Counted from the first letter of the stretch, positions 51,006 to 64,000 are shown. The stretch: DNA of 64,000 nt from Terriglobia bacterium (GCA_020073305.1 JAIQFK010000011.1:91547-155546); one strand, 5' to 3'. Numbers and translations are program-made. The notes: generated by a model from the sequence alone, not told the origin.

Positions 51006-52255
51006 GGCTGTTTCTTCTCCAGATCAAGCTCGGTCAAAGAGACGAGACTGTTCTCCGGGATGCCGCGCACGGCTACCTCGTCGGGGTTGCGCGCCACAAT
51101 CTCCACATTGACGGCGCGGTAGCTACCGTCCTTTTGGGCCGTGTAGACGACGGGCTTGCCGTCGCGCGTAAAGATGGCTTTGCCAGGAACGCTGATGGCG
51201 TTGGGGATTCGGGCGGTGATCACGTCCATGGTGCCGTTCATGTCCGGGCGCAGGCGCGGATCGGGCTTCTGGATCTCGGCATAAACGTGGAAGCTGCGGA
51301 CGGGCGGCCACTCACCGAAGGTGACCAGCGTGAGCGGCGAGACGGCAGACACCTGAGCGGGGATCGTCTGCTCCGGAAATGCGTCCACGTGCACGCGCAC
51401 ATCCTGGCCGGACACCACGCGGCCGCGATCCACTTCGTCCAGTCTTCCCTCCATGCGCAGCGTGGACAGATCGGGAATCACGGCAAGCGGCGCGCCAGAC
51501 CACGCATGATCGCCAACCTTGAACGGCTGGCGGTTCATCCAGCCCTGCGAGGTGTTCATCTGATAGACCACCACGCCTTCGATCGCGGCCTTGATTTCCA
51601 TTTCTCCCAGCCTCTCGTTGGCGAGATCCACTTCCGCCTGCGCTTTGTCGCGCTGCTGGGTGACGGAGGCGATCTTGGCGGTGTCGGATGCTTTGTGGAG
51701 GTTTACGGTTGCCTCCTGCACCTTGAGCTTCATCTCGGCGGACTGCAAATCGACCTTGCTCTCTTCTCCCTGGATGAGGCTCACGATGGCTTGCTTGGAG
51801 GCTTCGAGCCGGGCGCGCTCGACCTGGTAACGCGCATTGGCCAGATCGAGCTTGTCCTGTTCGGCGGTAATGCGCGCTTGTGCTACGGCCTGGTCGACGG
51901 TGGCCTGAGCCTGCTTCAGGACGGCGTTCTTTTCGTCCAGCTGCTGGCGGGCGCTCGACGGGTCGAAACGAACCACCGGCTCGCCGGCCTTTATGTGTCC
52001 GCCGGGCGGTGCGAGCCAGAGGATTTTCAGATCAGGCACATTAATCGGCGCGGTGATTTGCACGGAGCGCTTGACCGAGAGTTCTCCGCGGCAAACCACG
52101 ATGACGGCGAATTCACCTTTGCGGGCGCGAGCCGTGGGCGGATTGACCGCCGCCTGGACCTTGCGCATGCGATACACACCGCCGGTGACGGCAATGGCGA
52201 CGGCGACCACGGATACCGCGAGGATGATCCGCTTCGACCGCCGGGGTGACTTCAT
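51002..52255 (-). CDS. HlyD-family periplasmic adaptor 2
   Basis: TM anchor (IILAVSVVAVAIAV), IKAGEPVVRFD, a coiled coil, and IKAAIEGVV...RPDMNGTMDV. Confidence 0.85.
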   Translation of the reverse strand: MKSPRRSKRIILAVSVVAVAIAVTGGVYRMRKVQAAVNPPTARARKGEFAVIVVCRGELSVKRSVQITAPINVPDLKILWLAPPGGHIKAGEPVVRFDPSSARQQLDEKNAVLKQAQATVDQAVAQARITAEQDKLDLANARYQVERARLEASKQAIVSLIQGEESKVDLQSAEMKLKVQEATVNLHKASDTAKIASVTQQRDKAQAEVDLANERLGEMEIKAAIEGVVVYQMNTSQGWMNRQPFKVGDHAWSGAPLAVIPDLSTLRMEGRLDEVDRGRVVSGQDVRVHVDAFPEQTIPAQVSAVSPLTLVTFGEWPPVRSFHVYAEIQKPDPRLRPDMNGTMDVITARIPNAISVPGKAIFTRDGKPVVYTAQKDGSYRAVNVEIVARNPDEVAVRGIPENSLVSLTELDLEKKQP

Positions 52256-52256
52256 T

Positions 52257-53537
52257 TCAGCCTCTTTTTGCCTCTACGTGTTCTGCAGGTGGGTCCGGGA
52301 GATCCACCGGCGAGAGAATCTCGTCGCCGCGATCGAGACCTGAGGTGATTTCGATCCAGGTGTCGCTAAACGCGCCCACCTGAACGGCTCGCTCCTCCTC
52401 GCCGCCAGATCCGGAGATTCGCGTAACGTACGGTTTGCCTTGGCGATAGTGCACCGCGATCCTCGGCACCAGCAATGCCGGCTCCTTCGAGATCACTTCC
52501 AGGTCCACTGCCGCCGAGAGGTCGGGCAGCAAATGGGGATCTTGTTCGTCCATGCGGAACCGGGCCGGAAAAGTCCGGACAACGCTATCCAGAAGTGCAG
52601 TTGCAACCGGGCTCGCCGAATCCAAATGGGCTTTGAAAGTCAGCGCTGGGTACGCGTCCAGGCGGACGGTAGCCTGTGAACCCTGGTCTAGCACTGCGCC
52701 GTCCGGCTCGCCGACCGATACCTCCACTTCCATCGCGGAGGGGTCGAAAATGCGCAGAAGGGGCTGGCCGGGCCAGAGTTGATCGCCTTCCTGGGCTGGG
52801 CCGAAGGTATCGTTGTGCCAGGAGTTTTCGCGCGACACCATCCCGGGTAGCGGGGCCTTCACCAGGAGCTTCTCGGAATTGCTCTGGGCGCGCTCCCACG
52901 CCAGTTTCTGCCGGTCGCGCTGCAACTCGAGAATCTTGAGGTCGGCGGCTTCCGAGACGTCGTGAGAATGTCCGGAGCGCTTGAGGCTGGCGACGTGCGC
53001 CTGGGCATCCTCGAGCTTAGCCTGGTTTTTCAGCCGATCGATTTCACTCAGGATGGGCCCTTTGCGCAACTCCAACTCGGCTTTGGCCAGATCGGCCGTG
53101 GCCTGCTGCAGGTCGGCCGCGCGCTTTTCGGCATCGGCGCGGTGCTGTTCCTTGCGCTGATCCACCTGGTGGCGAAGGTCTTCAAACTTGGCCTGCGCTT
53201 CCCGCGCATTGTCCAGTTGCTTGGTCCGGTCAAATTCGGCCAGGACATCCCCCTCTTTCACCGACCCACCGGTGGGTACGAGTTTGGTCAACGTCATGTC
53301 GCCGCCCTGGCCGTGAATCTGCGGAACCCGAACGGTGAGCGCGTTGACGGCTTGCACGGTACCGTTCGATCGCACCAGCCGGTGCAAACGGTCGAACCGG
53401 ACTTTTATCTTTTTCAATGGGGTGTCCGACCGGGGAGGAATGGGGGCCGTCTTAGCCTCACACCCCATGAGAATGAGAGCTGCCGAAGCCACCGCAGCCC
53501 AAGCACAGCGTGTAACGTGCCGGTTCCGCCGCATCAC
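52257..53537 (-). CDS. HlyD-family periplasmic adaptor 1 (lipoprotein)
   Basis: Lipobox ALILMGC, VKEGDVLAEFD, a coiled coil, and VKAPLPGMV. This is the first gene of the efflux operon. Confidence 0.85.
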   Translation of the reverse strand: MMRRNRHVTRCAWAAVASAALILMGCEAKTAPIPPRSDTPLKKIKVRFDRLHRLVRSNGTVQAVNALTVRVPQIHGQGGDMTLTKLVPTGGSVKEGDVLAEFDRTKQLDNAREAQAKFEDLRHQVDQRKEQHRADAEKRAADLQQATADLAKAELELRKGPILSEIDRLKNQAKLEDAQAHVASLKRSGHSHDVSEAADLKILELQRDRQKLAWERAQSNSEKLLVKAPLPGMVSRENSWHNDTFGPAQEGDQLWPGQPLLRIFDPSAMEVEVSVGEPDGAVLDQGSQATVRLDAYPALTFKAHLDSASPVATALLDSVVRTFPARFRMDEQDPHLLPDLSAAVDLEVISKEPALLVPRIAVHYRQGKPYVTRISGSGGEEERAVQVGAFSDTWIEITSGLDRGDEILSPVDLPDPPAEHVEAKRG

Positions 53538-53692: not shown

Positions 53693-53769
53693 TGGTGGGC
53701 GGTCGCGGGCTCGAACCGCGGACCTTCTGCTTGTAAGGCAGACGCTCTAACCAACTGAGCTAACCGCCC
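53693..53769 (-). tRNA. tRNA-Val (anticodon UAC), CCA encoded
   Basis: The reverse complement reads GGGCGGTTAGCTCAGTTGGTTAGAGCGTCTGCCTTACAAGCAGAAGGTCCGCGGTTCGAGCCCGCGACCGCCCACCA. It has a 7-bp acceptor stem, anticodon loop CUUACAA, T-loop GGTTCGAGCC, discriminator A and CCA. Confidence 0.93.
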
Positions 53770-54275: not shown

Positions 54276-54893
54276 CTACTTGCCGGATCCGCCGAGGCGC
54301 AGCAAGCCCTCCGCGGCACGCTTACCGCTCTCGGAATTGGGGTCGCTTGCCACGGTGCGTCTCCAGTATTCGCGGGCGGCATCGATTTTGCTTGAATTGG
54401 CATAGATAGCGCCCACGTTATAGAGTGCGTCCACATTCTTTGGATCGCTCGTCAGAATCCGATTGGTTTGTTCCAGCGCCCCGGCGACGTCGCCTGTGTC
54501 GTAAAGGTTTCGGCCCAGCTCCAGACGAGCTTCCGCATTTCCCGGCTCAACCTGGAGGATCTTGCGCAGCAGAGGGATGGCCTCCGCCGGCTTGCCGTTC
54601 TCGCGGGCCAGCTGCGCCAGGCGAAACAAAATGGGTACGTGATTGGGCTTCTTCTGCAGCTCGGCCTGGAGGGCCATAGCCTCATGCCGATTGTCTGCTG
54701 TTTTGTCGGCGACGGGCGGCCGCCCAGCATCGGCACTAGAGGCTTTCCCGGCGTCACTCGACGGAGCGTGTTTCACGAGCAGAAACCACGTCAGTCCGAG
54801 GAAAACGGCCACAGCTGCGACGGCGGCTACTAGAAGGCGTTGAACTCTGGGGTTGAGCGACACGATTTCACTTCTCCTGTCAGGCTTCGGCAA
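54276..54893 (-). CDS. membrane-anchored TPR protein, NrfG/CcmI (CcmH C-terminal)-like
   Basis: One TM helix (LLVAAVAAVAVFLGLTWFLLV), then about 4 TPRs (PILFRLAQLARENGKPAEAIPLLRKILQVEPGNAEA, ALEQTNRILTSDPKNVDA, AREYWRRTVASDPN). It is the last gene of the cytochrome operon and overlaps the upstream gene by 14 nt. Confidence 0.75.
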   Translation of the reverse strand: MPKPDRRSEIVSLNPRVQRLLVAAVAAVAVFLGLTWFLLVKHAPSSDAGKASSADAGRPPVADKTADNRHEAMALQAELQKKPNHVPILFRLAQLARENGKPAEAIPLLRKILQVEPGNAEARLELGRNLYDTGDVAGALEQTNRILTSDPKNVDALYNVGAIYANSSKIDAAREYWRRTVASDPNSESGKRAAEGLLRLGGSGK

Positions 54894-56283
54894 GCTGCGC
54901 CACAGCGAGCTTGGCCTGTCTGGCCTCCAGGCTTGCCTCCAATGTCATGTCGCGCATTCCGAACTCGACGCCGATCTTCTTCAGAAAGTCGTTGGGAGGC
55001 GTGCCACCGGCGAAGATCCAGACGAAGTCGTTGGGTATCTCCTGCAACTGGCCATTAACATCGAGGATCACGGATTCCTGCCTGAATTCCACGGGATTGG
55101 AGTTGAACACGACCTTGACCTTCCCCGTCCGCATGCATTCTTCGATACGCATTGCGTTTCGCTCTTTGATGCGGCTGAAGGATTCCTTGCGATACGAGAG
55201 TGTGACGTGGTTGCCACTTTGATGCCCCAGGCCCATGGCTGCCTCGATGGCGCTGTCGCCACCACCAACCACGAGAATCCTCTTGTTGATGTAATGGTCG
55301 GCCTCAATCAGGCGGTACATGACCTTGGGCAGCTCCTCGCCTTTGACCCCAAGCTTCCGCGGCGTGCCGGCGCGGCCGAGAGCCAGGACCACGGCGCGCG
55401 CCCGGTATTCGTGTTTGCTGGTCACGATGGTGAAGGTGCCATCCTGTCCCCTGCTGATGCGCTCCATTTTCTCGCCCGTACGGACATTGAAATCCACGCG
55501 TTGGAGAACCTGGCGCCAGAAAGCAACGAGCTCTTCCTTGGAGAGCTGCATCTTCGTAAACTTTCCATACATGGGAAATTGCACGGGACTTGTCATTACC
55601 AGTTTCTGGCGCGGATACTTCGCCACCGTACCGCCAATCTCATCCTGCTCAACCGTAATGTAATGGAGCTTGCTCTCGATGGCGCGCAAGGAGGCACTGA
55701 TCCCCGCGGGACCGGCTCCCACGATCAACACATCGTAAACATCCCCGGCTGACCCGGCGCCCCCCATGGCGCTGACCCGGTTGGTGACGGTATCGATGCA
55801 ATCGCGGCCCTGGTTCACTGCATTTTTGATCAAAGCCAGCCCGCCGAGTTCTCCGACAATAAAAAGATTCTGGATGCTTGTCTCGTATTCGGGCGTCAAG
55901 TAGGGCATGTCTGTGCCCATGCTCGGGCTGGCTGTGACCATGGTGATTGCGCCCACCGGGCAGGCCTCGGCGCATAGGCTGTGGCCGATACATTTGTGTC
56001 CGTTGACGATGACCGCCTTGCCTCCCAGCATGGCAAGGACATCACCCTCGGGACACACCGTGGTGCAGGTTTGGCAGCCGATGCAGTACGTGGTGTCGAT
56101 ATGCGGATGCTGGGCCTTGGGCCCCTCGGAATATAGCTTTCCCTTTTCCGCAGCCTCGCGCGCCCGCGCCTCCCTTCTCTTCAGGCTCCTTAGATACAGG
56201 ATCAAGGGGACCGCAAGGACGAACGCCGAGACACAAAAGGTGAGAATGGTGTCGGTCATTTCAAAAGTAGCCCAGAAGGACAA
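54880..56283 (-). CDS. membrane-anchored 2x[4Fe-4S] ferredoxin domain fused to an FAD/NAD(P)-dependent (thioredoxin-reductase-like) oxidoreductase
   Basis: An N-terminal TM helix is followed by a positively charged stretch, so the catalytic part is predicted to be cytoplasmic. Two Cys clusters are present (CIGCQTCTTVCP and CIGHSLCAEACP), plus dinucleotide motifs YDVLIVGAGPAG and ILVVGGGDSAIE. Confidence 0.85.
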   Translation of the reverse strand: MSFWATFEMTDTILTFCVSAFVLAVPLILYLRSLKRREARAREAAEKGKLYSEGPKAQHPHIDTTYCIGCQTCTTVCPEGDVLAMLGGKAVIVNGHKCIGHSLCAEACPVGAITMVTASPSMGTDMPYLTPEYETSIQNLFIVGELGGLALIKNAVNQGRDCIDTVTNRVSAMGGAGSAGDVYDVLIVGAGPAGISASLRAIESKLHYITVEQDEIGGTVAKYPRQKLVMTSPVQFPMYGKFTKMQLSKEELVAFWRQVLQRVDFNVRTGEKMERISRGQDGTFTIVTSKHEYRARAVVLALGRAGTPRKLGVKGEELPKVMYRLIEADHYINKRILVVGGGDSAIEAAMGLGHQSGNHVTLSYRKESFSRIKERNAMRIEECMRTGKVKVVFNSNPVEFRQESVILDVNGQLQEIPNDFVWIFAGGTPPNDFLKKIGVEFGMRDMTLEASLEARQAKLAVAQLAEA

Positions 56284-57214
56284 CCACGCCGATGTGAATC
56301 AACACGAGCGCGGCGAACGAGTAGCTGAACGGGCGATGGACGATGTGCCAGAGATGAAACAACGAGTGAATGCGCGCAAGAAAAAGCATCTTCGCTGAGA
56401 TCCAGGACCAGCCCCGGCACGCGGAGATCACGGCCTCGAGTTCGCGATGGCCGGAAGGCAGCAATCCGCCTACGGTCGCCAGCTTTCCGAGCGGCGAGAG
56501 GGCCTTGCGGCGCAGCCTGCTCACCAGGAACGGGCGCGCGAGATCCATGCGCAGGATGGTCCACAGCGCCATGACTATGGACATCCGCGCGACCTCCTCA
56601 CGTGAAGGGAGCCTCAAAAGGGGCGCAATTTCCTCCGGCGTGAGCATCGCCTGCCGCTGCAAGTCGGCCGCCAATTTGCTCGCCTCGCTTTCCATCTCAT
56701 TGAGCGACAGTTCCGCCGTGCTCAAACTGCGGGGAATCTGTGCGTAAAGGTAGCGGCCAACGAAACCGCTGAGCGCCACGACGATCATGATCCAGTAGGC
56801 CACTCCTGCAATGCCAGCCAGCTTAAAAGAGGAATGGAACGTCACTACCAGCGGTGCGATTACACCTAAGAGCACGTGAAAATCCAGCCAGTGCCTGGTG
56901 GTTCCAATGCGGTTCAACCACGGCCATCGTTTGCGAATCGGATACAGGAACAACCCCACAAAGAGCAAGGCGCCGAGCATCCCCAGCCGCAAGCCGACCG
57001 TGCCGCTGGGTCGCAGCGCAGCGTGTAACGGGGAGTTTGCGCGCCCGGCAAGGTCCTGCCGGTAATAGGGGAAGCCGTAGATTACGAGCCAGAGAATGAC
57101 GCCGGTGGACACCAGCCACGTGAATTGCAGCCGCAGCCGGTGCCAGCGTTCGGGGTCGGATTGAACACCCGCCCGCGCGCGAGTGCTGATGGAGGTTTGG
57201 GAAACGGTTGCCAT
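56261..57214 (-). CDS. six-TM membrane protein with two H-x13-H pairs (candidate di-heme b carrier)
   Basis: 317 aa. H113/H127 (FHVLLGVIAPLVVTFH) and H293/H307 (HRPFSYSFAALVLIH) lie in or at predicted TM helices. The gene is flanked by, and overlaps, genes for redox proteins. Confidence 0.7.
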   Translation of the reverse strand: MATVSQTSISTRARAGVQSDPERWHRLRLQFTWLVSTGVILWLVIYGFPYYRQDLAGRANSPLHAALRPSGTVGLRLGMLGALLFVGLFLYPIRKRWPWLNRIGTTRHWLDFHVLLGVIAPLVVTFHSSFKLAGIAGVAYWIMIVVALSGFVGRYLYAQIPRSLSTAELSLNEMESEASKLAADLQRQAMLTPEEIAPLLRLPSREEVARMSIVMALWTILRMDLARPFLVSRLRRKALSPLGKLATVGGLLPSGHRELEAVISACRGWSWISAKMLFLARIHSLFHLWHIVHRPFSYSFAALVLIHIGVVVLLGYF

Positions 57215-57217
57215 AAG

Positions 57218-58009
57218 TTACTGTTTGGGGCTCTCTGTCTTGGTGTCTGTCGTGACTGAGAACCTACGGTATCGCGCAAACTGGTGGACGTTTCGCCAGC
57301 GTTGATGTTCGGTGCCGGCCTCGATCACGGCCACTTCCGGCAGCCAGGCAGTTTCCTTTTCACTTTGGAACTGCACGGGCACATAGCGCACATCGCTCCA
57401 TAGTTCTCGCAGACCCACGTCAGGCATCGACGTCTTCAATCCGGCATGGATACGGCTGACGTAGCCGGTTTTGGGATCGATCCAGGCGGAACCTTGCCAC
57501 TCCAGTGGATAATCGCGCCCGCGCAACTGTAGCGCGGCCGGAGTGCGCCGTCCCTGAATATGTTCAAAGCGGACCTCCTGGAGCTTTCTGCCGTTGATAT
57601 CCTCCAGGGCGACTGGAGTGAATTCGTAACTGGACTGGAAATAAGGATGGAAGATCAGGACCAGTGTGGAGAAACCCGCGGTGGAGAGCAACGGCCGGTC
57701 ACTCGCCTTTTTTGGCTGCCCTTGGGGCAGGCGCGATTCGTCCACCGTCAGGTCGTCACCTGTCAGTTGCAACATAATGAGGTAATCGAAAGTGGAGGTG
57801 CGCTGCACCAGCACTTTGCCGCTCGCGCCCAGCTTGGTTTGCAGGACCGTCTCCGTGCACGAGACCGCGGAGAACTGGTCCCAGAATTCTTCCACGCGTT
57901 TTCCGGTGCGATCGAGAAGGCCATCCAGCGGTACCGCGGTCGCCGTCGCGCCCACCAGTTTAAAACCGATAGCCAAGACTGAAAAGAATTTGATCATAGT
58001 TCTGCACAT
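57218..58009 (-). CDS. secreted/periplasmic protein, unknown function
   Basis: 263-aa ORF with a signal-like N-terminus (MIKFFSVLAIGFKLVGATATA), no Cys-rich or heme motifs, and a beta-rich sequence. It overlaps the barrel gene's 3' end and ends 3 nt before the next gene. Confidence 0.7.
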   Translation of the reverse strand: MCRTMIKFFSVLAIGFKLVGATATAVPLDGLLDRTGKRVEEFWDQFSAVSCTETVLQTKLGASGKVLVQRTSTFDYLIMLQLTGDDLTVDESRLPQGQPKKASDRPLLSTAGFSTLVLIFHPYFQSSYEFTPVALEDINGRKLQEVRFEHIQGRRTPAALQLRGRDYPLEWQGSAWIDPKTGYVSRIHAGLKTSMPDVGLRELWSDVRYVPVQFQSEKETAWLPEVAVIEAGTEHQRWRNVHQFARYRRFSVTTDTKTESPKQ

Positions 58010-59630
58010 TTCCGCGATACATAGTGGCGCCGCCGCTTACGAAATAGTGGGATGCGAAAAACCAATCCAGATCGTAAGTCAGGAAGTTTCCCCGGCCTTG
58101 GCTGCTAAAGGTTGAGCGCACATTCTGCTGACCGGCTTGCAACGACATGCGCAGCTTTTCGCCAAAATCCCGAAGCAAGGTGGCCGTCGTGTAGTGCCCC
58201 TTGCCGAATGAGCTGTCAAATTTCGAGTATTGCAAATCCGCCCGCATCCCACTCTGCCCGAGACGGCCGAGCATGAGCCCGTACATCTGATTCCAGGAGG
58301 CCCTGAGGTCGGAATCACGCCGGTTGCGTCCCAGATTGGTGTAGACGCTGGCGTGGTACGGCAAATTCACGCGGACGCCTGCGCTCGTGCCCTGGAACAG
58401 GAACTTCTGCAACAGGCCGGTGCCCAACAGGCGCAGATCGAACGTGGGGACGTTGCGGAAGTAGCTGTCGTTGAAGTCAAATGCGATCACGCGGTGCGGC
58501 TGAAATCGCACGGTGAGAAAACTGCGGCTCAGCACCGGACCGCTTTCGGTCGAGCCCAGCCGGCCCCGGACCAACTGGTCGGCTTGCAGATCGTGATAGA
58601 TGGAAAAATACTGTTTGAAGAAAATGCTGTTTTCGAAAAACGCAAATTGCCGCTCGGCGCGCCATTTCAGCCGGGTCAGCGCCACACCCGCCGTGCCCGA
58701 ATAGCGGATCCCGTCAAAGCTGCCGGCCGCAATGTTAGTGAAGGCACCCGCCATCTGGCGATCCTTGTTGTAGTTCCACGACGTGGGGTCGGGCGTGGAG
58801 CCTCCGAAAATTCCAGCCGTCACGCGGCCGAACTTTCGCGCGAAGTACGCACCATCAATCGTGTCCAGACTGCTCGCCCACGGAAGCAGCAGACGTCCTA
58901 TCCCCGCCACGTAGTGCGAATTCGGATTGTCGTAATAAAGGCCGATATGATAGGTGCGGTTAAGCAAGTCGGTGAGCGTCTCCTGCCCTGCGCCACTGCT
59001 CGAGGTCAGCCGGCCGTGCCAGTACCCGGTGAAATTCCAGTACGAACCGCCAATTCGCGTCATGTCGGCGCGGAGCGACATGCCTTCCTGAGTGGAGCTC
59101 GCTTGCGACGGGCCATGGTCTTGTATGGTGGATTGCTCGAGCGCCACCCGTCCCCGGATCCGATTGACTTCAGGTAAAGGCGGCCGCGGCACATACGCAC
59201 GCAGTTCCTCTTCCAGGGGATCGCCTTCCGTGAAGCTGACTACCTGAGCGTACTTGCGCGCGCTTTTGGAAGAGTAAACCATGCGGGCCGTTTCCGTATC
59301 CTGCGCGGAAAGATACGCGAGATCGCCGACCTCCAATTCCATTTCGTGGGACTTGATTTCACACGCCGCCGAGCTTTCCGCAAGCGAGACCACCACCACT
59401 TCGGCAACCGGCTTGGCGTCCATCTCGGCGTCACCCGGCTTCCGGCGCTTCACCGTGAGATGGAAGCCCTCGGCCAGACCGGCGCCACGTCCACCATCCA
59501 GGTACACAGCTCCGCTGGCTACATATCGAACGTGAAAAGTCGTACGCGGTTCCTGACCTTGAGCGTGCCCGGCCACGGCAAGGGCCAGCACGGGCCACCA
59601 GGTCGATAGATAATGGCGTCCGCGTATCAA
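57960..59630 (-). CDS. outer-membrane beta-barrel protein (porin-like) with an N-terminal soluble domain
   Basis: Signal peptide (WWPVLALAVAGHAQG), about 430 aa of alternating amphipathic beta pattern rich in Y/G/N/R, and a canonical OMP C-terminus ...ILFSLGYRF ending in Phe. Its TTG start overlaps the cytochrome stop (TTGA). Confidence 0.8.
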   Translation of the reverse strand: MIRGRHYLSTWWPVLALAVAGHAQGQEPRTTFHVRYVASGAVYLDGGRGAGLAEGFHLTVKRRKPGDAEMDAKPVAEVVVVSLAESSAACEIKSHEMELEVGDLAYLSAQDTETARMVYSSKSARKYAQVVSFTEGDPLEEELRAYVPRPPLPEVNRIRGRVALEQSTIQDHGPSQASSTQEGMSLRADMTRIGGSYWNFTGYWHGRLTSSSGAGQETLTDLLNRTYHIGLYYDNPNSHYVAGIGRLLLPWASSLDTIDGAYFARKFGRVTAGIFGGSTPDPTSWNYNKDRQMAGAFTNIAAGSFDGIRYSGTAGVALTRLKWRAERQFAFFENSIFFKQYFSIYHDLQADQLVRGRLGSTESGPVLSRSFLTVRFQPHRVIAFDFNDSYFRNVPTFDLRLLGTGLLQKFLFQGTSAGVRVNLPYHASVYTNLGRNRRDSDLRASWNQMYGLMLGRLGQSGMRADLQYSKFDSSFGKGHYTTATLLRDFGEKLRMSLQAGQQNVRSTFSSQGRGNFLTYDLDWFFASHYFVSGGATMYRGNVQNYDQILFSLGYRF

Positions 59631-62600
59631 TCGGCCCTCCCCCGGGGGTGGCAGGAGTAACAGTTCAGGCTGTTGTAGACATATCCTTTCACGTCCTTGT
59701 GGTGACCGTCGGTCGTACTCTTATCGTGCGTGTGGCAATTAATGCAGCTGAACACGGAATAATCGGAAGCATTCGTATGGCAGTCGCCACAAGTAGTCCA
59801 CACGCCTTGGTTGTGCGCGCCTGAATAGATGGGGAATTGGGTGTGATTGAACGTTGCGCCCGACCACGAAGTCGTCGTGTGGCAAGTGTCGCAGGTGGTG
59901 GGGAACCCGGCCGCCACGTGATTCGGATTCGTGGTTGTCTGGTACTCCTTCTGGTGGCAACCGTAACAGGCCGTGGAGGACAGGTTGTAGTTGCCGCCCA
60001 CGTGGCACGACGCGCAGGGCGTAGTGGAGTGCACGCCCGTTAACGCAAAACCCGTCTTGCTGTGATCGAACGTAGCGCCCGCCCACGAGGTTGTGCTGTG
60101 ACACGTATCGCAGGTGGTAGGAAACCCAGCCGCCGCGTGGGCGGGGTTAGTGGTGCCGTTGTAATCGGTTTGGTGGCAGTTGATGCAGGCGCCGCTGTTC
60201 AGGCTGTAATTGTTGTTGGTGTGGCACTGCGCGCACTGCAGGTTCACGTGCGCGCCCGTCAGGGCGAAACCGGTGGTTGCATGATTAAACGTTGCACCCA
60301 GCCAATTGGTGGTGGTGTGGCACAGGGTGCAATCCTGCGGGAACCCCGCCGATTGGTGAGGGGGATTTGTGGTGCCGTTGTAATCGGTCAGGTGACAGTT
60401 GATGCAGGCGCCGCTTGTCAGGCTGTAATTGTTGTTGACGTGGCATTGCGCGCACTGCAGGTTCACGTGCGCGCCGGTCAGAGCGAAGCCCGTGGTCGCG
60501 TGATTAAACGTTGCGCCTAGCCAATTGGTGGTGGTGTGGCACAGGGTGCAATCCTGCGGGAACCCCGCTGATTTGTGAGGCGGATTGTTGGTGCCGTTGT
60601 AATCAGTCAAATGGCAGTTGATACACGCGCCGCTGGTGAGGCTGAAATTATTGTTGGTGTGGCACTGTGCGCACTGCAGGTTGACATGCGCCCCGGTGAG
60701 GGCGAAGCCCGTGGTTGTGTGATTGAAGGTGGCGCTGGTCCAGTTGGTGGTGGTGTGGCAGAGGGTGCAATCCTGCGGGAACCCAGCCGATTTGTGAGGC
60801 GGATTATTCGTGCCATTGTAGTCGGTCAGGTGACAGTTGATGCACGCGCCGCTGGTGAGGCTGTAATTGTTATTGACGTGGCACTGCGCGCACTGCAGGT
60901 TGACATGCGCGCCGGTCAGCGCGAAGCCCGTGGTGGCATGGTTGAAAGTAGCGCCCAGCCAATTGGTGGTGGTGTGGCAGGAGTCACACGTGGTCGGAAA
61001 CCCGCCGGCTTTGTGCGGCGGATTGGTGGCGCCGTTGTAATCGGTCAGGTGGCAGTTGATGCAGGCGCCACTGGTCAGGCTGTAATTGTTGTTGGTGTGG
61101 CATTGTGCGCACTGCAGGTTCACGTGCGCGCCGGTCAGCGCGAAGCCCGTGGTCGTATGGTTGAAGGTGGCACCGGTCCAGTTGGTGGTCGTGTGGCACA
61201 GGGTGCAGTCCTGGGGGAAGCCTGCTGACTTGTGAGGCGGATTATTCGTGCCATTGTAGTCGGTCAGGTGACAGTTGATGCACGCGCCGCTGGTGAGGCT
61301 GTAATTGTTATTGACGTGGCACTGCGCGCACTGCAGGTTGACGTGCGCGCCGGTCAGCGCGAAGCCCGTGGTCGCATGGTTGAACGTGGCGCCCAGCCAA
61401 TTGGTGGTGGTGTGGCACAGGGTGCAATCCTGCGGGAACCCAGCCGATTTGTGTGGCGGATTATTGGTGCCGTTGTAATCGGTCAGGTGACAGTTGATGC
61501 AGGCCGCGCTGGTCAGGTTGAAATTGTTGTTGGTGTGGCACTGCGCGCACTGCAGGTTGACATGCGCGCCGGTTAGAGCGAACCCCGTGGTTGTGTGATT
61601 GAACGTTGCACCCAGCCAGTTGGTGGTGGTATGGCACACCGAGCAGTCGGTTGGGAATCCGGCCGAGACGTGATTCGGGTTGGTCGTACCCTGGAAATCC
61701 TTCAGATGGCAGCTCGCGCAGGCCGTTGACAAGCTGCTGAAGTTCCCTCCGACGTGGCACTGATTGCAAGCCGTTGTCTGATGAGCGCCGGTCAACGGGA
61801 ACGCTGTTTTCGAATGATCGAACTGCGCGCCGGCCCACGAGGCTGTGGTGTGGCAGGCTGAGCAGAGTGTCGGAAACCCGGCCGCCACGTGGCTGGGATT
61901 CGTGGTTTTGTTGAAATCCGTCAGGTGGCAGCCGGCGCAATCGGTTGGAGTTCCGGCGAACTTGCCTCCAACGTGGCACTGGCTGCACGCCAGGCTCACA
62001 TGCGCGCCCGTCAGGGGAAACTTGGTGGCCGTGCTGTGATTGAAGACAGCGTTTGCCCACGAGGCGGTGTTGTGGCAGACCTCGCAGGTGGTCGGGAAGG
62101 CGGCTGCGGCGTGAGGCGGATTGTTAGTGCTGGCGAAATCCTTCTGATGGCAGCCAATGCAGGTTGCCGCGGTCAACTTGTAATTGTTGTTGACGTGGCA
62201 CTGCGTGCACGCGATGGTCGCATGGAAACCCGTCAAGGCGAATCCAGTGGTCGTGTGGTTGAAGGTGACGGCGCTCCATTGCGCCGTGGTGTGGCACCAC
62301 TGGCATGTGGTCGGCTGTCCCATCGCCACGTGGTTGGGTTGCGTCGTGTTCTTGTAATCCTGCATATGGCACCCCACGCAATCCGTCGGCAAGCTTCCGC
62401 CGGATGATTTGCTGGTGTGGCACTGGCTGCAGGTCAAAGTGGTGTGCGCCCCGTTGAGTGGAAAGATCGTCTTCGAATGATCGAATTGCGCGCCTGCCCA
62501 TGAACTTGTCGTGTGGCAGTCTGCGCAAGTGGTCGGGAAGCCCGTCGTCACGTGGCTGGGACTCGTGGTCTTTTTGAAATCCGTCAGGTGGCAACTCACG

Positions 62601-63811
62601 CAATCGGTGGAGATGGCCGTAAACTGGCCGCCCGCATGACACTGCGCGCAGGCGGCCGTTGCATGCGCTCCTGTCAGCGGGAACTTCGTGATGCTGTGAT
62701 CGAACTTCGCGCCCTGCCAGTTTGCCGTGGTATGGCACGTATCACACTGCGTGGGTAGATTCAGGCTGCGGTGATTGGGATTGGTGGTCTTGGCAAAGTC
62801 CGGCAGGTGACAGCCGGCGCAATCCGTGGGAGTTCCGGCGAATCGTCCGTTGACGTGACACGCTGAGCACAGCACACTGATGTGCGCCCCGGTAAGGCGG
62901 AACTTGGTCGTGTTGTGGTCGAAGGTCGCGCCCTGCCAGGTGGAGGTGTTGTGACAGCCGCTGCAATCGTGTGGGAAGCCTGCGGTCACGTGATTCGGGT
63001 TTTTCGTGGCGGCAAAAGTTTGCGCGTGACAGCCGTAGCACTCCGTAGGCGTACCCTGGAACCGGTTTCCTGCATGACAAGACGTGCACGCCAATTGAGC
63101 GTGCGCGCCCGTGAGGCTGAACCGCGTGAACTGTGTGTGATCGAACTTCGCTCCCTGCCATTGGTCCATGGTGTGGCAGGTCAGGCAATTGACCGGCAGG
63201 TTTGCCGCGACGTGATCGAGTGGGCGCGCCTGTTGGAAGTTACGCTGGTGGCAACTGATGCAATCGGTGCTCAGTCCGACGTAGACCCCTGTTGCGGCTC
63301 CAGGGTGGCACGAATCGCACTCTACCGTGGCATGCGCGCCTAAGAGTGGGAAGCGATTCAGGTGGCTACGAATCGCATTCACATTCGCGCGCCAGCCATT
63401 GACCGTGTGGCAATCCTGGCAGCGGGCGCCGAGCTGACGCCGATGGATGTCAGCGTGGCAATCAGCGCATTGATGACCAACGTTAGTAAAAACTTTTCTC
63501 AGATGGCAGGAATTACACGCGACATTTTGATGCAAGCCACGCAATGGGTACTTAGTTTCCCGATTGTGGTCAAATTCGACAGTCTTCCGGATGGGCGCCC
63601 AACTCGTCGTGGTGTGGCAGTTCTCGCAAGCGATAGCCAGCGGCCCATGCGGGTTCTGCATGCGCGCCGCTTTGCTGGTCTGGGCAACCAGCACTCCGGA
63701 GCTTGCCAGCAGCGTTGCAAGCACTGCAAACAGGCGCCACGGCCCGCTCACCGGCCGTCTCCAGCCTCCGCCGATTTCTCTTGCTCTTCGCGCCCTCCTG
63801 TCTCGTAGCAA
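59627..63811 (-). CDS. giant multiheme cytochrome c (55 CXXCH motifs; 18 tandem c7-like triheme modules)
   Basis: 1394 aa with a Sec-type signal (WRLFAVLATLLASSGVLVAQ). I counted 55 CXXCH motifs, and the first Cys of each module recurs every 73-74 aa over most of the protein (the first two intervals are 69 and 78) (C62, 131, 209 ... 1234, 1307). The start is TTG 63811 or GTG 63751. Confidence 0.93.
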   Translation of the reverse strand: MLRDRRARRAREIGGGWRRPVSGPWRLFAVLATLLASSGVLVAQTSKAARMQNPHGPLAIACENCHTTTSWAPIRKTVEFDHNRETKYPLRGLHQNVACNSCHLRKVFTNVGHQCADCHADIHRRQLGARCQDCHTVNGWRANVNAIRSHLNRFPLLGAHATVECDSCHPGAATGVYVGLSTDCISCHQRNFQQARPLDHVAANLPVNCLTCHTMDQWQGAKFDHTQFTRFSLTGAHAQLACTSCHAGNRFQGTPTECYGCHAQTFAATKNPNHVTAGFPHDCSGCHNTSTWQGATFDHNTTKFRLTGAHISVLCSACHVNGRFAGTPTDCAGCHLPDFAKTTNPNHRSLNLPTQCDTCHTTANWQGAKFDHSITKFPLTGAHATAACAQCHAGGQFTAISTDCVSCHLTDFKKTTSPSHVTTGFPTTCADCHTTSSWAGAQFDHSKTIFPLNGAHTTLTCSQCHTSKSSGGSLPTDCVGCHMQDYKNTTQPNHVAMGQPTTCQWCHTTAQWSAVTFNHTTTGFALTGFHATIACTQCHVNNNYKLTAATCIGCHQKDFASTNNPPHAAAAFPTTCEVCHNTASWANAVFNHSTATKFPLTGAHVSLACSQCHVGGKFAGTPTDCAGCHLTDFNKTTNPSHVAAGFPTLCSACHTTASWAGAQFDHSKTAFPLTGAHQTTACNQCHVGGNFSSLSTACASCHLKDFQGTTNPNHVSAGFPTDCSVCHTTTNWLGATFNHTTTGFALTGAHVNLQCAQCHTNNNFNLTSAACINCHLTDYNGTNNPPHKSAGFPQDCTLCHTTTNWLGATFNHATTGFALTGAHVNLQCAQCHVNNNYSLTSGACINCHLTDYNGTNNPPHKSAGFPQDCTLCHTTTNWTGATFNHTTTGFALTGAHVNLQCAQCHTNNNYSLTSGACINCHLTDYNGATNPPHKAGGFPTTCDSCHTTTNWLGATFNHATTGFALTGAHVNLQCAQCHVNNNYSLTSGACINCHLTDYNGTNNPPHKSAGFPQDCTLCHTTTNWTSATFNHTTTGFALTGAHVNLQCAQCHTNNNFSLTSGACINCHLTDYNGTNNPPHKSAGFPQDCTLCHTTTNWLGATFNHATTGFALTGAHVNLQCAQCHVNNNYSLTSGACINCHLTDYNGTTNPPHQSAGFPQDCTLCHTTTNWLGATFNHATTGFALTGAHVNLQCAQCHTNNNYSLNSGACINCHQTDYNGTTNPAHAAAGFPTTCDTCHSTTSWAGATFDHSKTGFALTGVHSTTPCASCHVGGNYNLSSTACYGCHQKEYQTTTNPNHVAAGFPTTCDTCHTTTSWSGATFNHTQFPIYSGAHNQGVWTTCGDCHTNASDYSVFSCINCHTHDKSTTDGHHKDVKGYVYNSLNCYSCHPRGRAD
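60100..61650. repeat. seven near-identical tandem 219-bp (73-codon) repeats inside the cytochrome gene
   Basis: For example, TGATGCAGGCGCCGCT recurs at 60181 and 60400, exactly 219 bp apart. The protein modules starting at C723, 796, 869, 942, 1015, 1088 and 1161 are more than 90% identical by eye. Confidence 0.9.
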
Positions 63812-64000
63812 GGTCTCTTGTCTCTCAGGGGTCCAAGATGAATCGTTGCCAGCAGAGCGGCCACGTCCGGCGCGCCCTGCAAGCGGTACTCACAACTCGT
63901 TAAGTTGTTTCGCCAAGCACGCGCGGGACCAGAACCCTGATTGCATGCTTTCGAAGACTCCGTGAAGGCGCCTCACAGATTTGCGTGACAGGCAGCGCAG

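What the first reader, a model, noticed from the sequence alone, without database searches (positions are those of the whole stretch)
59627..63811. 1394-aa cytochrome c with 55 CXXCH sites built from 18 triheme modules, each carrying exactly three extra conserved histidines
Counting in the translated ORF gives 55 CXXCH motifs, about one per 25 residues. The protein resolves into 18 units of mostly 73-74 aa.

Each unit has the pattern CxxCH-x9-F[DN]H-x8-GAH-x4-CxxCH-x11-CxxCH-x8-NPxH-x8. That is three heme-attachment sites plus three invariant non-CXXCH histidines per unit, which is the stoichiometry expected for three bis-His hemes.

The size and heme number of each unit match the triheme cytochrome c7 domain. 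Geobacter polymerises that domain in GSU1996, a dodecaheme with four c7-type domains that is described as a nanowire-like protein. An 18-domain version would be far longer; if extended like GSU1996, it would reach tens of nm by extrapolation. That would place it among the most heme-rich single polypeptides I am aware of.
Basis: partly seen in the sequence, partly recalled or inferred. Interest (0 to 1): 0.85.

Follow-up and report, generated by a model that had tools for sequence, protein, structure and literature searches.

The report
Giant 55-heme cytochrome wire, Acidobacteria
The gene really encodes a 55-heme protein built from repeated three-heme units. It is a mid-sized member of a very large, unstudied family of soil-bacterial "protein wires" (up to 112 hemes), always encoded next to an outer-membrane pore and a probable NAD(P)H-fed inner-membrane entry module, so it most likely carries electrons out of the cell.

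Summary
**Observation confirmed.** The ORF at 59627-63811 (-) is intact. It has 55 CXXCH sites, all 110 Cys lie in those sites, and there are 59 further His and no conserved Met.

**Anatomy.**
- Signal peptide.
- Conserved 6-heme head.
- 15 canonical 73-74-aa triheme modules, each with three invariant extra His.
- Conserved 4-heme cap, which gives the family rule of 3n+1 hemes.

**Interpretation partly supported.**
- Modules pass Pfam Cytochrome_C7 and TIGR04257. They show no significant similarity to GSU1996 (E=0.15) and lack its His-Met heme.
- It is not unusually heme-rich for its family: 80 of the top 120 homologues have more hemes, and orthologous loci range from 9 to 112.

**New context.** A cluster is conserved in at least 508 species genomes, the closest ones Acidobacteriota:
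- a constant 23-heme cytochrome;
- this variable-length cytochrome;
- a predicted 22-strand outer-membrane barrel;
- a 263-aa periplasmic protein;
- a membrane protein with an invariant di-heme-b four-His motif;
- a membrane-anchored 2x[4Fe-4S]/FAD/NAD(P)H oxidoreductase;
- a TPR protein.

**Best reading (about 0.5).** It is a trans-envelope electron-export conduit that bypasses the quinone pool. All members are uncharacterised, so I class it as a new variant of a known kind.

The parts
59627..63811 (-). Giant multiheme cytochrome c ORF: 1394 aa from the TTG start, or about 1374 aa from the probable GTG start at 63751. It has 55 CXXCH sites.
63683..63751 (-). Probable Sec signal peptide (aa 21-43, MSGPWRLFAVLATLLASSGVLVAQ). 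There is no lipobox Cys.
   Evidence: Hydrophobic segment at aa 27-45; P0082 starts here.
63188..63649 (-). Conserved N-terminal 'head': 6 hemes (CXXCH at aa 62, 99, 115, 131, 165, 184), with spacing 37, 16, 16, 34, 19, 25.
   Evidence: The 112-heme orthologue in L079 has identical spacing.
59894..63187 (-). Body: 15 canonical triheme modules of 73-74 aa (aa 209-1306, 45 hemes). Each has three invariant non-CXXCH His.
60113..61645 (-). Sub-array of 7 closely related modules (aa 723-1233). They are 81-97% identical in protein and 77-93% in DNA. The duplication unit is two modules (438 bp). dN/dS is about 0.09.
   Evidence: (TRF, 219-bp period x 6.8)
59630..59893 (-). Conserved C-terminal 4-heme 'cap' (aa 1307-1394; FPIYSGxH..CxDCH..CxxCHxH..YVY..CYSCHP). 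It is the source of the '+1' in the 3n+1 rule.
   Evidence: The best TIGR04257 stretch (aa 1298-1361) is here.
63973..64000 (-). 3' end of the upstream paralogous 23-heme cytochrome gene (653 aa). The rest lies beyond the window edge and was read from L001 7818-9779.
57960..59630 (-). 556-aa predicted outer-membrane beta-barrel: signal peptide, small N-terminal beta domain, 22 strands, C-terminal Phe. Its start overlaps the cytochrome's stop codon by 4 nt.
   Evidence: no family match; 33; more than 2736 homologues, none with a Pfam domain; AF2 pLDDT 78.5; Foldseek hits are all OM barrels, with FimD/PapC ushers on top
57218..58009 (-). 263-aa protein with a signal peptide and no known domain. 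It is present in 63 of 65 orthologous loci and is probably a periplasmic accessory subunit.
56261..57214 (-). 317-aa protein with five predicted TM segments. It has invariant His pairs H113/H127 (TM3) and H293/H307 (TM5), so it is a predicted transmembrane di-heme b-type electron carrier. No known family matches.
54880..56283 (-). 467-aa oxidoreductase: an N-terminal membrane anchor, a 2x[4Fe-4S] ferredoxin domain (second motif CxxHxxCxxxCP) and a TrxR/YpdA-like FAD/NAD(P)H flavoprotein domain.
54276..54893 (-). 205-aa membrane-anchored TPR protein, the last gene of the cluster. It may be an assembly or apocytochrome chaperone, but the CcmH/CycH-type TPR hit is below threshold.

Best explanation
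**What it is.** The gene encodes a secreted, all-bis-His, 55-heme c-type cytochrome. A conserved 6-heme head and a conserved 4-heme cap are joined by 15 c7-like triheme modules. The result is a single-polypeptide heme wire, roughly 50 nm long if it is extended like GSU1996 (about 1 nm per heme).

**The system it belongs to.** It is the variable-length element of a conserved seven-gene, envelope-spanning electron-transfer system of Acidobacteriota, also seen in Bacteroidota.

**Proposed electron path.**
1. Cytoplasmic NAD(P)H, or a comparable low-potential donor, reduces the FAD of the membrane-anchored 467-aa flavo-FeS protein.
2. Electrons pass through its two FeS clusters.
3. They cross the inner membrane through two b-hemes held by the four invariant His of the 317-aa protein.
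4. They enter the periplasmic 23-heme cytochrome.
5. They run along the 55-heme wire, which is held by, or threaded through, the 22-strand outer-membrane barrel.
6. They reach extracellular acceptors such as Fe(III)/Mn(IV) oxides or humic matter.

**Shown.** Gene content, motifs, domain families, the predicted barrel fold, cluster conservation, and purifying selection on the modules.

**Inferred.** Heme occupancy and ligation, b-heme binding, direction of electron flow, which cytochrome sits in the barrel, and the extracellular acceptor.
For: **The cytochrome.**
- 55 CXXCH, all Cys in those motifs, 59 spare His and no conserved Met.
- Passes the C7 and nanowire_3heme profiles.
- Has a signal peptide.

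**Selection and authenticity.**
- dN/dS is about 0.09 with dS about 0.8 among the 7 similar modules.
- The ORF is intact.
- Homologues on Mb-scale contigs carry up to 97-112 hemes with the same head and cap spacing.

**The barrel.**
- The AF2 model has pLDDT 78.5, 22 strands and a C-terminal Phe.
- 272 Foldseek PDB hits at E<=1e-3, and all 50 listed are OM barrels, led by usher pores.
- Its start overlaps the cytochrome's stop codon by 4 nt.

**The inner-membrane module.**
- H113, H127, H290, H293 and H307 are 100% conserved in 111 sequences. Each pair is spaced 14 positions apart on one predicted TM helix.
- The 467-aa protein has a TM anchor followed by basic residues, a ferredoxin domain and a YpdA/TrxR/FNR-like flavoprotein domain. 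Its FAD and NAD(P)H motifs are invariant and it has no CxxC.

**Cluster conservation.**
- The same gene order occurs in L002 and L003. The same gene set, rearranged, occurs in a Saprospiraceae genome, L004.
- Of 65 loci, 63 have p263, 60 have p317 and 49 have p467.
- A constant 23-heme cytochrome plus a variable 3n+1 cytochrome is seen throughout.
- At least 508 species genomes encode the barrel relative.

**Physiological plausibility.** A cultured member of Bryobacterales, Paludibaculum fermentans, is a dissimilatory Fe(III) reducer (PMC8407742). A Paludibaculum MAG carries the cluster with an 85-heme cytochrome.
Against: - No member of any of the four core families has been studied experimentally.
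- Heme-less structure prediction of the modules failed (pLDDT 66, no Foldseek hit), so a linear wire geometry is assumed from GSU1996 rather than shown.
- The cytochrome has no lipobox or recognisable surface-sorting signal, so exposure outside the cell is unproven.
- The barrel is a generic large OM barrel (TM-score 0.3-0.45), and MtrB is not among the 50 listed hits.
- The 317-aa protein matches no known cytochrome b or ferric-reductase family.
- Electron export from NAD(P)H bypassing quinones would not conserve energy.
- Many Bryobacterales are aerobes.
- p467 was detected in only 49 of 65 loci within the distance scanned.
Confidence: 0.5

Rival explanations
1. Periplasmic electron reservoir ('capacitor'). 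The giant cytochrome stays in the periplasm and stores or buffers electrons, as proposed for GSU1996. The neighbouring barrel is unrelated or serves another purpose.
For: - GSU1996, the only characterised poly-triheme cytochrome, is periplasmic and is discussed as a capacitor (PMC10138318).
- The protein has a plain Sec signal peptide and no lipobox or sorting motif.
- 55 low-spin hemes give a large charge capacity.
Against: - The barrel gene overlaps the cytochrome's stop codon, and their adjacency is conserved.
- An extended 55-112-heme chain, at about 1 nm per heme, would exceed a typical periplasmic width (general knowledge).
- A dedicated inner-membrane input module and an OM barrel in one operon suggest a through-path rather than a store.
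Confidence: 0.2
2. The module number is an assembly artefact. The gene is real, but the count of near-identical modules (and hence 55) is inflated or collapsed by misassembly of the repeat.
For: - An independent short-read contig of the same population (L001, 100% identical over 2622 bp) breaks or turns chimeric at window 61379, 37 nt before a 113-bp exact repeat spaced two modules apart.
- The exact window protein is not on record elsewhere.
Against: - The ORF is uninterrupted and every module is in frame.
- The copies differ at 7-23% of nucleotides, with dS about 0.8 and dN/dS about 0.09, so they are distinct and resolvable.
- The count obeys the family's 3n+1 rule, with the correct head and cap.
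- Homologues with more modules occur on Mb-scale contigs.
Confidence: 0.1
3. Inward electron uptake. The conduit oxidises extracellular Fe(II), reduced humics or a partner cell, and delivers electrons inward to the flavo-FeS protein.
For: - Porin-cytochrome conduits of the Mtr/Mto/Pio type operate in both directions in different organisms (established knowledge).
- Nothing in the sequence fixes the direction.
Against: - All-bis-His hemes are typically low-potential.
- Reducing NAD(P)+ or ferredoxin from such donors, against the membrane potential, is thermodynamically unfavourable without an energy input that is not evident in the cluster (inference).
- A cultured relative is an Fe(III) reducer.
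Confidence: 0.1
4. Catalytic multiheme reductase. The protein reduces a soluble substrate at a specialised heme, as NrfA, HAO or octaheme reductases do.
For: There are weak profile hits to NrfA (E about 6e-4) and to HmcA and nine-heme cytochromes.
Against: - There is no CXXCK or other atypical site, and no five-coordinate candidate.
- His supply (59) covers all 55 hemes.
- The architecture is purely repetitive, and the repeat number varies from 7 to 37 modules among orthologues. That fits a wire and not an enzyme.
Confidence: 0.05

Closest known systems
GSU1996 (PDB 3OV0), the Geobacter sulfurreducens dodecaheme 'nanowire' cytochrome of four c7-type domains
   Same: - A single polypeptide made of tandem triheme modules of about 70-80 aa.
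- Both match TIGR04257 and Pfam Cytochrome_C7.
- A presumed linear heme chain.
   Different: - 18 units against 4.
- No significant sequence similarity (E=0.15).
- No His-Met heme; GSU1996 has one per domain.
- A distinct conserved head and cap.
- Encoded beside an OM barrel and a flavo-FeS/cytochrome-b-like module rather than standing alone as a periplasmic protein.
Cytochrome c7 / PpcA family (periplasmic triheme, all bis-His)
   Same: - Module size and three CXXCH sites.
- Three extra His, implying bis-His ligation.
- One module alone passes the Pfam C7 threshold.
   Different: - The order of ligands along the chain is H,C,H,H,C,C in the matching register, against H,H,C,H,C,C in PpcA. The PpcA order is from my own knowledge and was not tested here.
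- Only profile positions 13-67 of 67 are matched.
- The modules are polymerised rather than free.
Porin-cytochrome conduits (MtrCAB of Shewanella; OmaB/OmbB/OmcB and Ext clusters of Geobacter)
   Same: - A periplasmic multiheme cytochrome gene adjacent to an outer-membrane beta-barrel gene.
- The presumed function is moving electrons across the outer membrane.
   Different: - The barrel has about 22 predicted strands, and MtrB is not among the 50 listed structural matches.
- No lipoprotein surface cytochrome.
- Cytochromes of 23 and 3n+1 (22-112) hemes instead of 8-12.
- No quinol dehydrogenase of the CymA, ImcH or CbcL type.
- The input appears to be a flavo-FeS NAD(P)H oxidoreductase plus a novel di-heme-b-like protein.
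Hmc/Tmc/Nhc transmembrane redox complexes of sulfate reducers (HmcA 16-heme, PDB 1Z1N)
   Same: - A polymeric class-III cytochrome in the periplasm, wired through a membrane b-type subunit to a cytoplasmic FeS protein.
- HmcA is the best solved-structure and NCBIfam hit.
   Different: - Scores are far below family cutoffs (73.6 against 400 bits).
- The membrane and cytoplasmic subunits are unrelated.
- An OM barrel is present.
- The heme number is far larger and variable.
NOX/FRE ferric-reductase-domain oxidoreductases
   Same: - The same logic: NAD(P)H to FAD to two stacked b-hemes, ligated by two His pairs on two parallel TM helices (TM3 and TM5), to the outside.
- The His pairs here are 14 positions apart.
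   Different: - No detectable sequence relationship: there is no Pfam Ferric_reduct hit.
- Flavin and hemes are on separate polypeptides.
- Two FeS clusters are interposed.
- Five predicted TM segments, with a roughly 125-aa cytoplasmic insert.

Membership tests
Pfam PF14522 Cytochrome_C7 (c7 and related) | Score above the gathering threshold (24.8 bits) | tested here: met
   The whole protein scores 203.7 bits in 17 stretches. A single module in the NPxH-first register scores 25.7 bits over profile positions 13-67 of 67. Other registers score 16-17 bits.
TIGR04257 nanowire_3heme (c7-type triheme domain) | Score above the curated cutoff (40 bits) | tested here: met
   49.3 bits in 5 stretches, the best at aa 1298-1361.
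Cytochrome c7 sensu stricto (PpcA-type) | About 70 aa, three CXXCH, all hemes bis-His | tested here: met
   73-74-aa units with 3 CXXCH plus 3 invariant His and no Met. Ligation is inferred from stoichiometry and was not observed.
Cytochrome c7 sensu stricto (PpcA-type) | c7 fold and canonical order of distal His relative to the heme sites | tested here: inconclusive
   The His order differs by one displaced His (compared with the PpcA order from my own knowledge). The heme-less AF2 model had pLDDT 66 and gave 0 Foldseek hits.
GSU1996-type poly-c7 cytochromes | Tandem c7-type triheme domains in one polypeptide | tested here: met
GSU1996-type poly-c7 cytochromes | One His-Met coordinated heme per domain (PMC10138318) | tested here: not met
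   There are only 5 Met in 1394 aa and none is conserved in the modules.
GSU1996-type poly-c7 cytochromes | Significant sequence similarity to 3OV0/3OUE | tested here: not met
   phmmer finds no hit. The two-module profile gives E=0.13-0.15.
Porin-cytochrome (Mtr/Pcc-type) conduit | Outer-membrane beta-barrel gene adjacent to a periplasmic multiheme cytochrome gene | tested here: met
   The AF2 model has 22 strands. All 50 listed Foldseek hits are OM barrels. There is a 4-nt overlap. Adjacency is conserved.
Porin-cytochrome (Mtr/Pcc-type) conduit | Homology of the barrel to MtrB/OmbB, and presence of a surface lipoprotein cytochrome | tested here: not met
   No Pfam or NCBIfam hit for the barrel. 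MtrB is not among the 50 listed hits. Neither cytochrome has a lipobox.
Porin-cytochrome (Mtr/Pcc-type) conduit | The cytochrome physically spans or inserts into the barrel, and electrons reach extracellular acceptors | not testable with these tools
   Needs biochemistry or cryo-EM.
HmcA (NF045713) hexadecaheme cytochrome | Score above the equivalog cutoff (400 bits) | tested here: not met
   73.6 bits.
Transmembrane di-heme cytochrome b (four-His, two-helix type), for the 317-aa neighbour | Two His pairs, each 13-14 residues apart on one TM helix, and conserved | tested here: met
   H113/H127 and H293/H307 are 100% conserved in 111 sequences and lie in predicted TM3 and TM5.
Transmembrane di-heme cytochrome b (four-His, two-helix type), for the 317-aa neighbour | Membership of a known b-type family (Ferric_reduct, cytochrome b561, Ni_hydr_CYTB and others), and actual heme binding | tested here: not met
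   No Pfam, NCBIfam or PDB match. Heme binding is not testable here.

The most novel reading that the evidence does not exclude
The cluster encodes a previously undescribed type of extracellular electron-transfer machine that is widespread in soil Acidobacteria. It would be quinone-independent and NOX-like in logic: a flavo-FeS NAD(P)H oxidoreductase and a novel di-heme-b protein at the inner membrane feed a single-polypeptide heme wire. Evolution tunes the wire's length by adding or removing triheme modules (7 to 37 modules, roughly 20-110 nm). The wire threads an usher-sized outer-membrane barrel and reaches beyond the cell surface.
Probability: 0.3. Interest if true: 0.85.

Novelty: new variant of a known kind. 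Interest (0 to 1): 0.6.

Why it matters
- **Ecological gap.** Acidobacteriota are among the most abundant soil and peat bacteria, yet how they dispose of electrons in anoxic microsites is largely unknown.
- **Scale of the unknown.** This locus exemplifies a conserved, entirely uncharacterised seven-gene system. It is present in at least 508 species-level genomes, and three of its core proteins have no Pfam family.
- **Possible mechanism.** The system could explain Fe(III) or humic reduction by these organisms without Mtr- or Omc-type genes.
- **Protein design.** A covalent heme wire whose length varies in exact three-heme steps between a fixed head and cap is a natural series of molecular wires of defined length. 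That is of interest for bioelectronics and for testing how conductance scales with heme number.
- **Bioenergetics.** The proposed input, NAD(P)H to FAD to FeS to two b-hemes, would be a new way of feeding a bacterial extracellular conduit that bypasses the quinone pool.

Tried and rejected
1. **Module structure prediction.** AlphaFold2 on a two-module segment with a 32-sequence alignment gave pLDDT 66 and pTM 0.43. Foldseek against the PDB gave 0 hits. Heme-less prediction is uninformative, so the c7 fold remains unverified.
2. **Solved-structure searches.** The full-protein phmmer search of the PDB found nothing significant. The profile search gave only weak class-III hits.
3. **Exact look-up of the window protein.** Nothing on record. 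Only a truncated or chimeric short-read version exists (P0082/L001).
4. **Promoters.** Sigma-70 and sigma-54 promoter and terminator scans upstream gave matches at or below chance.
5. **TPR protein as a CcmI/CycH-type apocytochrome chaperone.** The hit is below the gathering score (31-33 against 42 bits), so only a generic TPR assignment is justified.
6. **Hematite-binding motif.** The motif [ST][hydrophobic][ST]P[ST] is absent.
7. **The 317-aa protein as a known cytochrome b or ferric-reductase family member.** No Pfam, NCBIfam or PDB support.
8. **Literature.** Five searches found no description of this cluster. The nearest are a peat EET preprint covering 8-13-heme conduits and a Desulfuromonadia survey. 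The library searched is incomplete, so prior description elsewhere cannot be excluded.
9. **Catalytic enzyme and pseudogene or artefact readings.** Rejected, as set out under the rival explanations.

Full report
**1.
- The ORF listing returns a 1394-aa ORF at 59627..63811 on the minus strand.
- A regex count gives exactly 55 CXXCH motifs. Every one of the 110 cysteines lies in such a motif. There are no CX3CH, CX4CH or CXXCK variants, 59 histidines outside the motifs and only 5 methionines.
- From the protein's own composition I calculate that fewer than one CXXCH would be expected by chance.
- Cutting the sequence at every third motif gives 15 consecutive units of 73-74 aa (aa 209-1306).
- Two divergent units lie at the N-terminus, one at the C-terminus, and there is one terminal extra site, giving 18x3+1 = 55.
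- The three extra His per unit are invariant in 32 two-module segments from this protein and its homologues.
- The mass is 144-149 kDa of protein plus 33.9 kDa of heme.
- The true start is probably the GTG at codon 21 (window 63751). It has a GGAGG/GGAGA sequence upstream, was chosen by an independent gene call, and yields a Sec signal peptide.

**2. The gene is not an artefact, though the exact copy number has a caveat.**
- Tandem Repeats Finder sees a 219-bp period repeated 6.8 times at 60147-61638.
- The seven central modules are 81-97% identical in protein but only 77-93% in DNA. The longest exact DNA repeat is 113 bp, spaced 438 bp apart, so the duplication unit is two modules. This agrees with the alternating CH[T/V]NNN residue.
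- Pairwise dN/dS averages 0.09 with dS about 0.8. The copies are old, distinct and under strong purifying selection.
- A short-read contig from another assembly (L001) is 100% identical over 2622 bp. It then diverges into unrelated sequence 37 nt before that 113-bp repeat. Short-read assemblers evidently struggle here, and an error of plus or minus two modules cannot be excluded.
- The count obeys the family rule described in section 4. Longer relatives also occur on Mb-scale contigs.

**3. What the modules are.**
- Pfam Cytochrome_C7 scores 203.7 bits against a cutoff of 24.8, in 17 stretches. Cytochrom_CIII and the MtrC/MtrF domain II/IV model also hit.
- NCBIfam TIGR04257 'nanowire_3heme' passes its cutoff (49.3 against 40). 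HmcA, DmsE and nine-heme models hit far below theirs.
- A single 73-aa module passes the C7 threshold only in the register NPxH-CxxCH-F[DN]H-GAH-CxxCH-CxxCH, at 25.7 bits over profile positions 13-67. The other registers give 16-17 bits.
- In that register the ligand order (H,C,H,H,C,C) differs by one displaced histidine from what I recall for PpcA (H,H,C,H,C,C).
- Against solved structures nothing is significant with the single sequence. A two-module profile finds 16-heme HmcA at 1e-5 and NrfA at about 6e-4. GSU1996 (3OV0/3OUE) appears only at E=0.13-0.15.
- GSU1996 domains each carry one His-Met heme, whereas c7 is all bis-His (PMC10138318). This protein has no conserved Met. It resembles c7 in ligation and GSU1996 only in being a polymer.
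- A heme-less AlphaFold2 model of two modules was poor (pLDDT 66) and found no structural neighbour. The fold is therefore not verified.

**4. Family architecture and size range.**
- The word-indexed search found 3277 relatives at E<=1e-10.
- The exhaustive search of 1.84 billion cluster representatives found 5210 at E<=1e-3 and 1152 at E<=1e-30.
- None of the relatives carries a curated functional name. Sources call them 'hypothetical protein', or give automated domain labels, some plainly spurious.
- Among the 120 best hits, heme counts run from 31 to 97 with a median of 61. Eighty have more than 55, and 89 of 120 have 3n+1 hemes.
- The '+1' comes from a conserved C-terminal cap, FPIYSGxH..CxDCH..CxxCHxH..YVY..CYSCHP.
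- The N-terminal head is also conserved. A 112-heme orthologue (L079; a 2820-codon stop-to-stop frame with no internal stop and 34 canonical modules) has the same head spacing (37, 16, 16, 34, 19, 25) and cap spacing (15, 28) as the window protein.
- The window's 55-heme protein is thus a mid-sized member. A 2026 preprint mentions up to 116 motifs in peat metagenomes.

The cytochrome is one gene of a tightly packed minus-strand operon. Gene overlaps or gaps run from -50 to +3 nt.

| Gene | Position | What the evidence shows |
|---|---|---|
| 23-heme cytochrome, 653 aa | Upstream, mostly beyond the window edge; seen in L001 | Paralogue of about 30% identity built from the same module type |
| 556-aa protein | 57960-59630 | No Pfam or NCBIfam match, and more than 2736 homologues, none with a domain. 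AlphaFold2 with 66 sequences gives pLDDT 78.5: a signal helix, a small N-terminal beta domain and 22 long strands ending in a C-terminal Phe. Foldseek gives 272 PDB hits at E<=1e-3, and all 50 listed are outer-membrane barrels, led by the FimD/PapC usher pores at modest TM-scores of 0.3-0.45 |
| 263-aa protein | 57218-58009 | Signal peptide, no known domain |
| 317-aa protein | 56261-57214 | Five predicted TM segments. H113, H127, H290, H293 and H307 are 100% conserved in 111 sequences. By the positive-inside rule TM3 and TM5 run in parallel. H113/H293 would then sit near the cytoplasmic face and H127/H307 near the periplasmic face, which is the classic four-His arrangement for two stacked b-hemes (inference). 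No known family or solved structure matches |
| 467-aa protein | 54880-56283 | An N-terminal TM anchor followed by basic residues, so the catalytic part should be cytoplasmic. It has a two-cluster ferredoxin domain whose second motif is CxxHxxCxxxCP in all orthologues. Its flavoprotein domain is closest to NADPH-dependent YpdA/Bdr, thioredoxin reductases and TrxR-type ferredoxin-NADP reductases. FAD and NAD(P)H motifs are invariant and there is no redox-active CxxC |
| TPR protein, 205 aa | 54276-54893 | Membrane-anchored; closes the cluster |

A tRNA-Val gene and an unrelated MacB/HlyD/TolC operon follow the cluster.

**6. Conservation of the cluster.**
- The same gene order is found next to a 97-heme and a 54-heme homologue (L002, L003). 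The same gene set, rearranged, is found in a Saprospiraceae (Bacteroidota) genome, L004.
The best 80 are all labelled Acidobacteriota (Terriglobia, Bryobacterales, Solibacter, Paludibaculum), apart from two probably mis-binned MAGs. The nearest is only 74% identical.
- The window therefore comes from an acidobacterium, probably in or near Bryobacterales, with no close representative in that collection.
- In 65 loci with enough downstream sequence, the 263-aa gene is present in 63, the 317-aa gene in 60 and the flavo-FeS gene in 49. The order is the same in 48.
- Upstream, the pattern is a constant 23-heme cytochrome followed by a variable one.
  - Frames that abut the barrel gene carry 9-112 CXXCH, and 37 of 48 obey 3n+1. 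The smallest of these are probably fragments or the 22-23-heme paralogue.
  - In 18 further loci checked, a small extra gene separates cytochrome and barrel. Most show a 23-heme cytochrome followed by one with 25, 28, 31, 34, 40, 58 or 61 hemes.

**7. How it most likely works.**
- The parts form a plausible continuous path:
  1. NAD(P)H or another low-potential donor
  2. FAD
  3. two FeS clusters
  4. two transmembrane b-hemes
  5. the periplasmic 23-heme cytochrome
  6. the variable-length heme wire
  7. the outer-membrane barrel
  8. extracellular acceptors
- At about 1 nm per heme (GSU1996 is described as 12 hemes in 12 nm, cited), 55 hemes would span roughly 50 nm. That is longer than a typical periplasm, which together with the translational coupling to the barrel favours a trans-envelope wire over a periplasmic store.
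- The logic resembles three known systems:
  - NOX/FRE enzymes at the inner membrane;
  - Hmc-type complexes, in coupling a polymeric class-III cytochrome to a cytoplasmic FeS protein;
  - Mtr/Pcc conduits at the outer membrane.
- Membership in each of those families fails the tests I could run (see the membership table).
- Electron export directly from NAD(P)H would not conserve energy. It would act as a redox-balancing sink, comparable in purpose to flavin-based extracellular electron transfer in Gram-positive bacteria (my own knowledge).
- A cultured member of Bryobacterales, Paludibaculum fermentans, is a dissimilatory Fe(III) reducer with unexamined multiheme cytochromes (PMC8407742). A Paludibaculum MAG carries this cluster with an 85-heme cytochrome.
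- Still inferred: direction of flow, b-heme binding, which cytochrome occupies the barrel, and surface exposure.

**8. Novelty and verdict.**
- Polymerised triheme cytochromes and porin-cytochrome conduits are known kinds. Long 'nanowire-like' single-chain cytochromes of about 27 hemes have been predicted in Desulfuromonadia (PMC11492766).
- What appears undescribed, within the limits of the library I could search, is threefold:
  - this specific conserved cluster;
  - the head/3n/cap architecture with module numbers from 7 to 37;
  - the flavo-FeS plus four-His membrane protein as the apparent electron input.
- I classify it as a new variant of a known kind and score interest at 0.6. The 55-heme count itself is unremarkable within its family, but the system is widespread in a dominant soil phylum, wholly uncharacterised and experimentally approachable.

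Noticed in passing
window 54880-56283 (-), aa 98-109: The second ferredoxin motif of the flavo-FeS oxidoreductase reads C98-xx-H101-xx-C104-xxx-C108-P. The His is invariant in five orthologues, including a Saprospiraceae one. This suggests a His-ligated or otherwise atypical [4Fe-4S] cluster, possibly the exit cluster facing the membrane partner. In L004, C70 of the first motif is Ser.
   Followed up: partly
L001 12374-12554 (ENA ERZ27247940 k141_266546): The last 181 bp of this short-read contig are unrelated to the window, although the preceding 2622 bp are 100% identical. The junction lies 37 nt before a 113-bp exact repeat in the gene. It is probably a chimeric join or assembly break, but a strain variant is not excluded.
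   Followed up: partly
window 60113-61645 (-): The seven most similar modules alternate CH-T-NNN and CH-V-NNN, and the longest exact repeat is spaced 438 bp apart. The array therefore expanded by duplicating two-module units. Protein identity exceeds DNA identity (dN/dS about 0.09).
   Followed up: yes
window 60001-62000: GC skew jumps to +0.21 on the plus strand, against about 0 to 0.08 elsewhere. The jump coincides with the repeat array and presumably reflects its biased codon and amino-acid content (T 15.5%, N 8.9%, C 8.1%, H 8.4%, E 0.5%).
   Followed up: no
window 46719-53537 (-): A MacB/FtsX-type permease, three tandem HlyD-family membrane-fusion paralogues and a TolC-like outer-membrane factor form a tripartite efflux operon. 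It lies immediately beyond the cytochrome cluster. Three consecutive adaptor paralogues are unusual.
   Followed up: no
window 53693-53769 (-): A tRNA-Val (anticodon TAC) separates the cytochrome cluster from the efflux operon.
   Followed up: no
window 39481-42947 (+); L002 24872-26221: A HAMP/PAS histidine kinase and a sigma-54-dependent response regulator lie about 11 kb from the cluster. In L002 a sigma-54 activator directly follows the cluster's TPR gene. No -24/-12 promoter match above chance was found upstream of the cytochrome genes.
   Followed up: partly
L052 (CALQCC020000017.1) and L014 (CAWBAT010000003.1): Two MAG contigs labelled 'Bordetella parapertussis' and 'Acidimicrobiia' carry this cluster, with barrel proteins 51-56% identical to the window's, like the Acidobacteriota loci. 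They are most likely mis-binned or mislabelled contigs. In L014 the cytochrome is broken into several frames.
   Followed up: no
L026, L048, L060, L061, L064, L065, L070, L076, L077, L080, L082, L083 and others: In a subset of orthologous loci, about 0.6-1.6 kb of extra sequence (presumably one extra gene) sits between the variable cytochrome and the barrel gene. I did not identify it.
   Followed up: no
L002 21078-24023: This locus, beside the 97-heme homologue, has two tandem paralogous copies of the flavo-FeS oxidoreductase. The second has a zinc-ribbon-like insertion after the membrane anchor.
   Followed up: no
window 54276-54893 (-): The cluster's membrane-anchored TPR protein and its orthologues give sub-threshold hits (31-33 against 42 bits) to the CcmH/CycH apocytochrome-chaperone TPR domain. 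This is a hint, not a finding, that it could help mature the 78 heme sites encoded upstream.
   Followed up: partly
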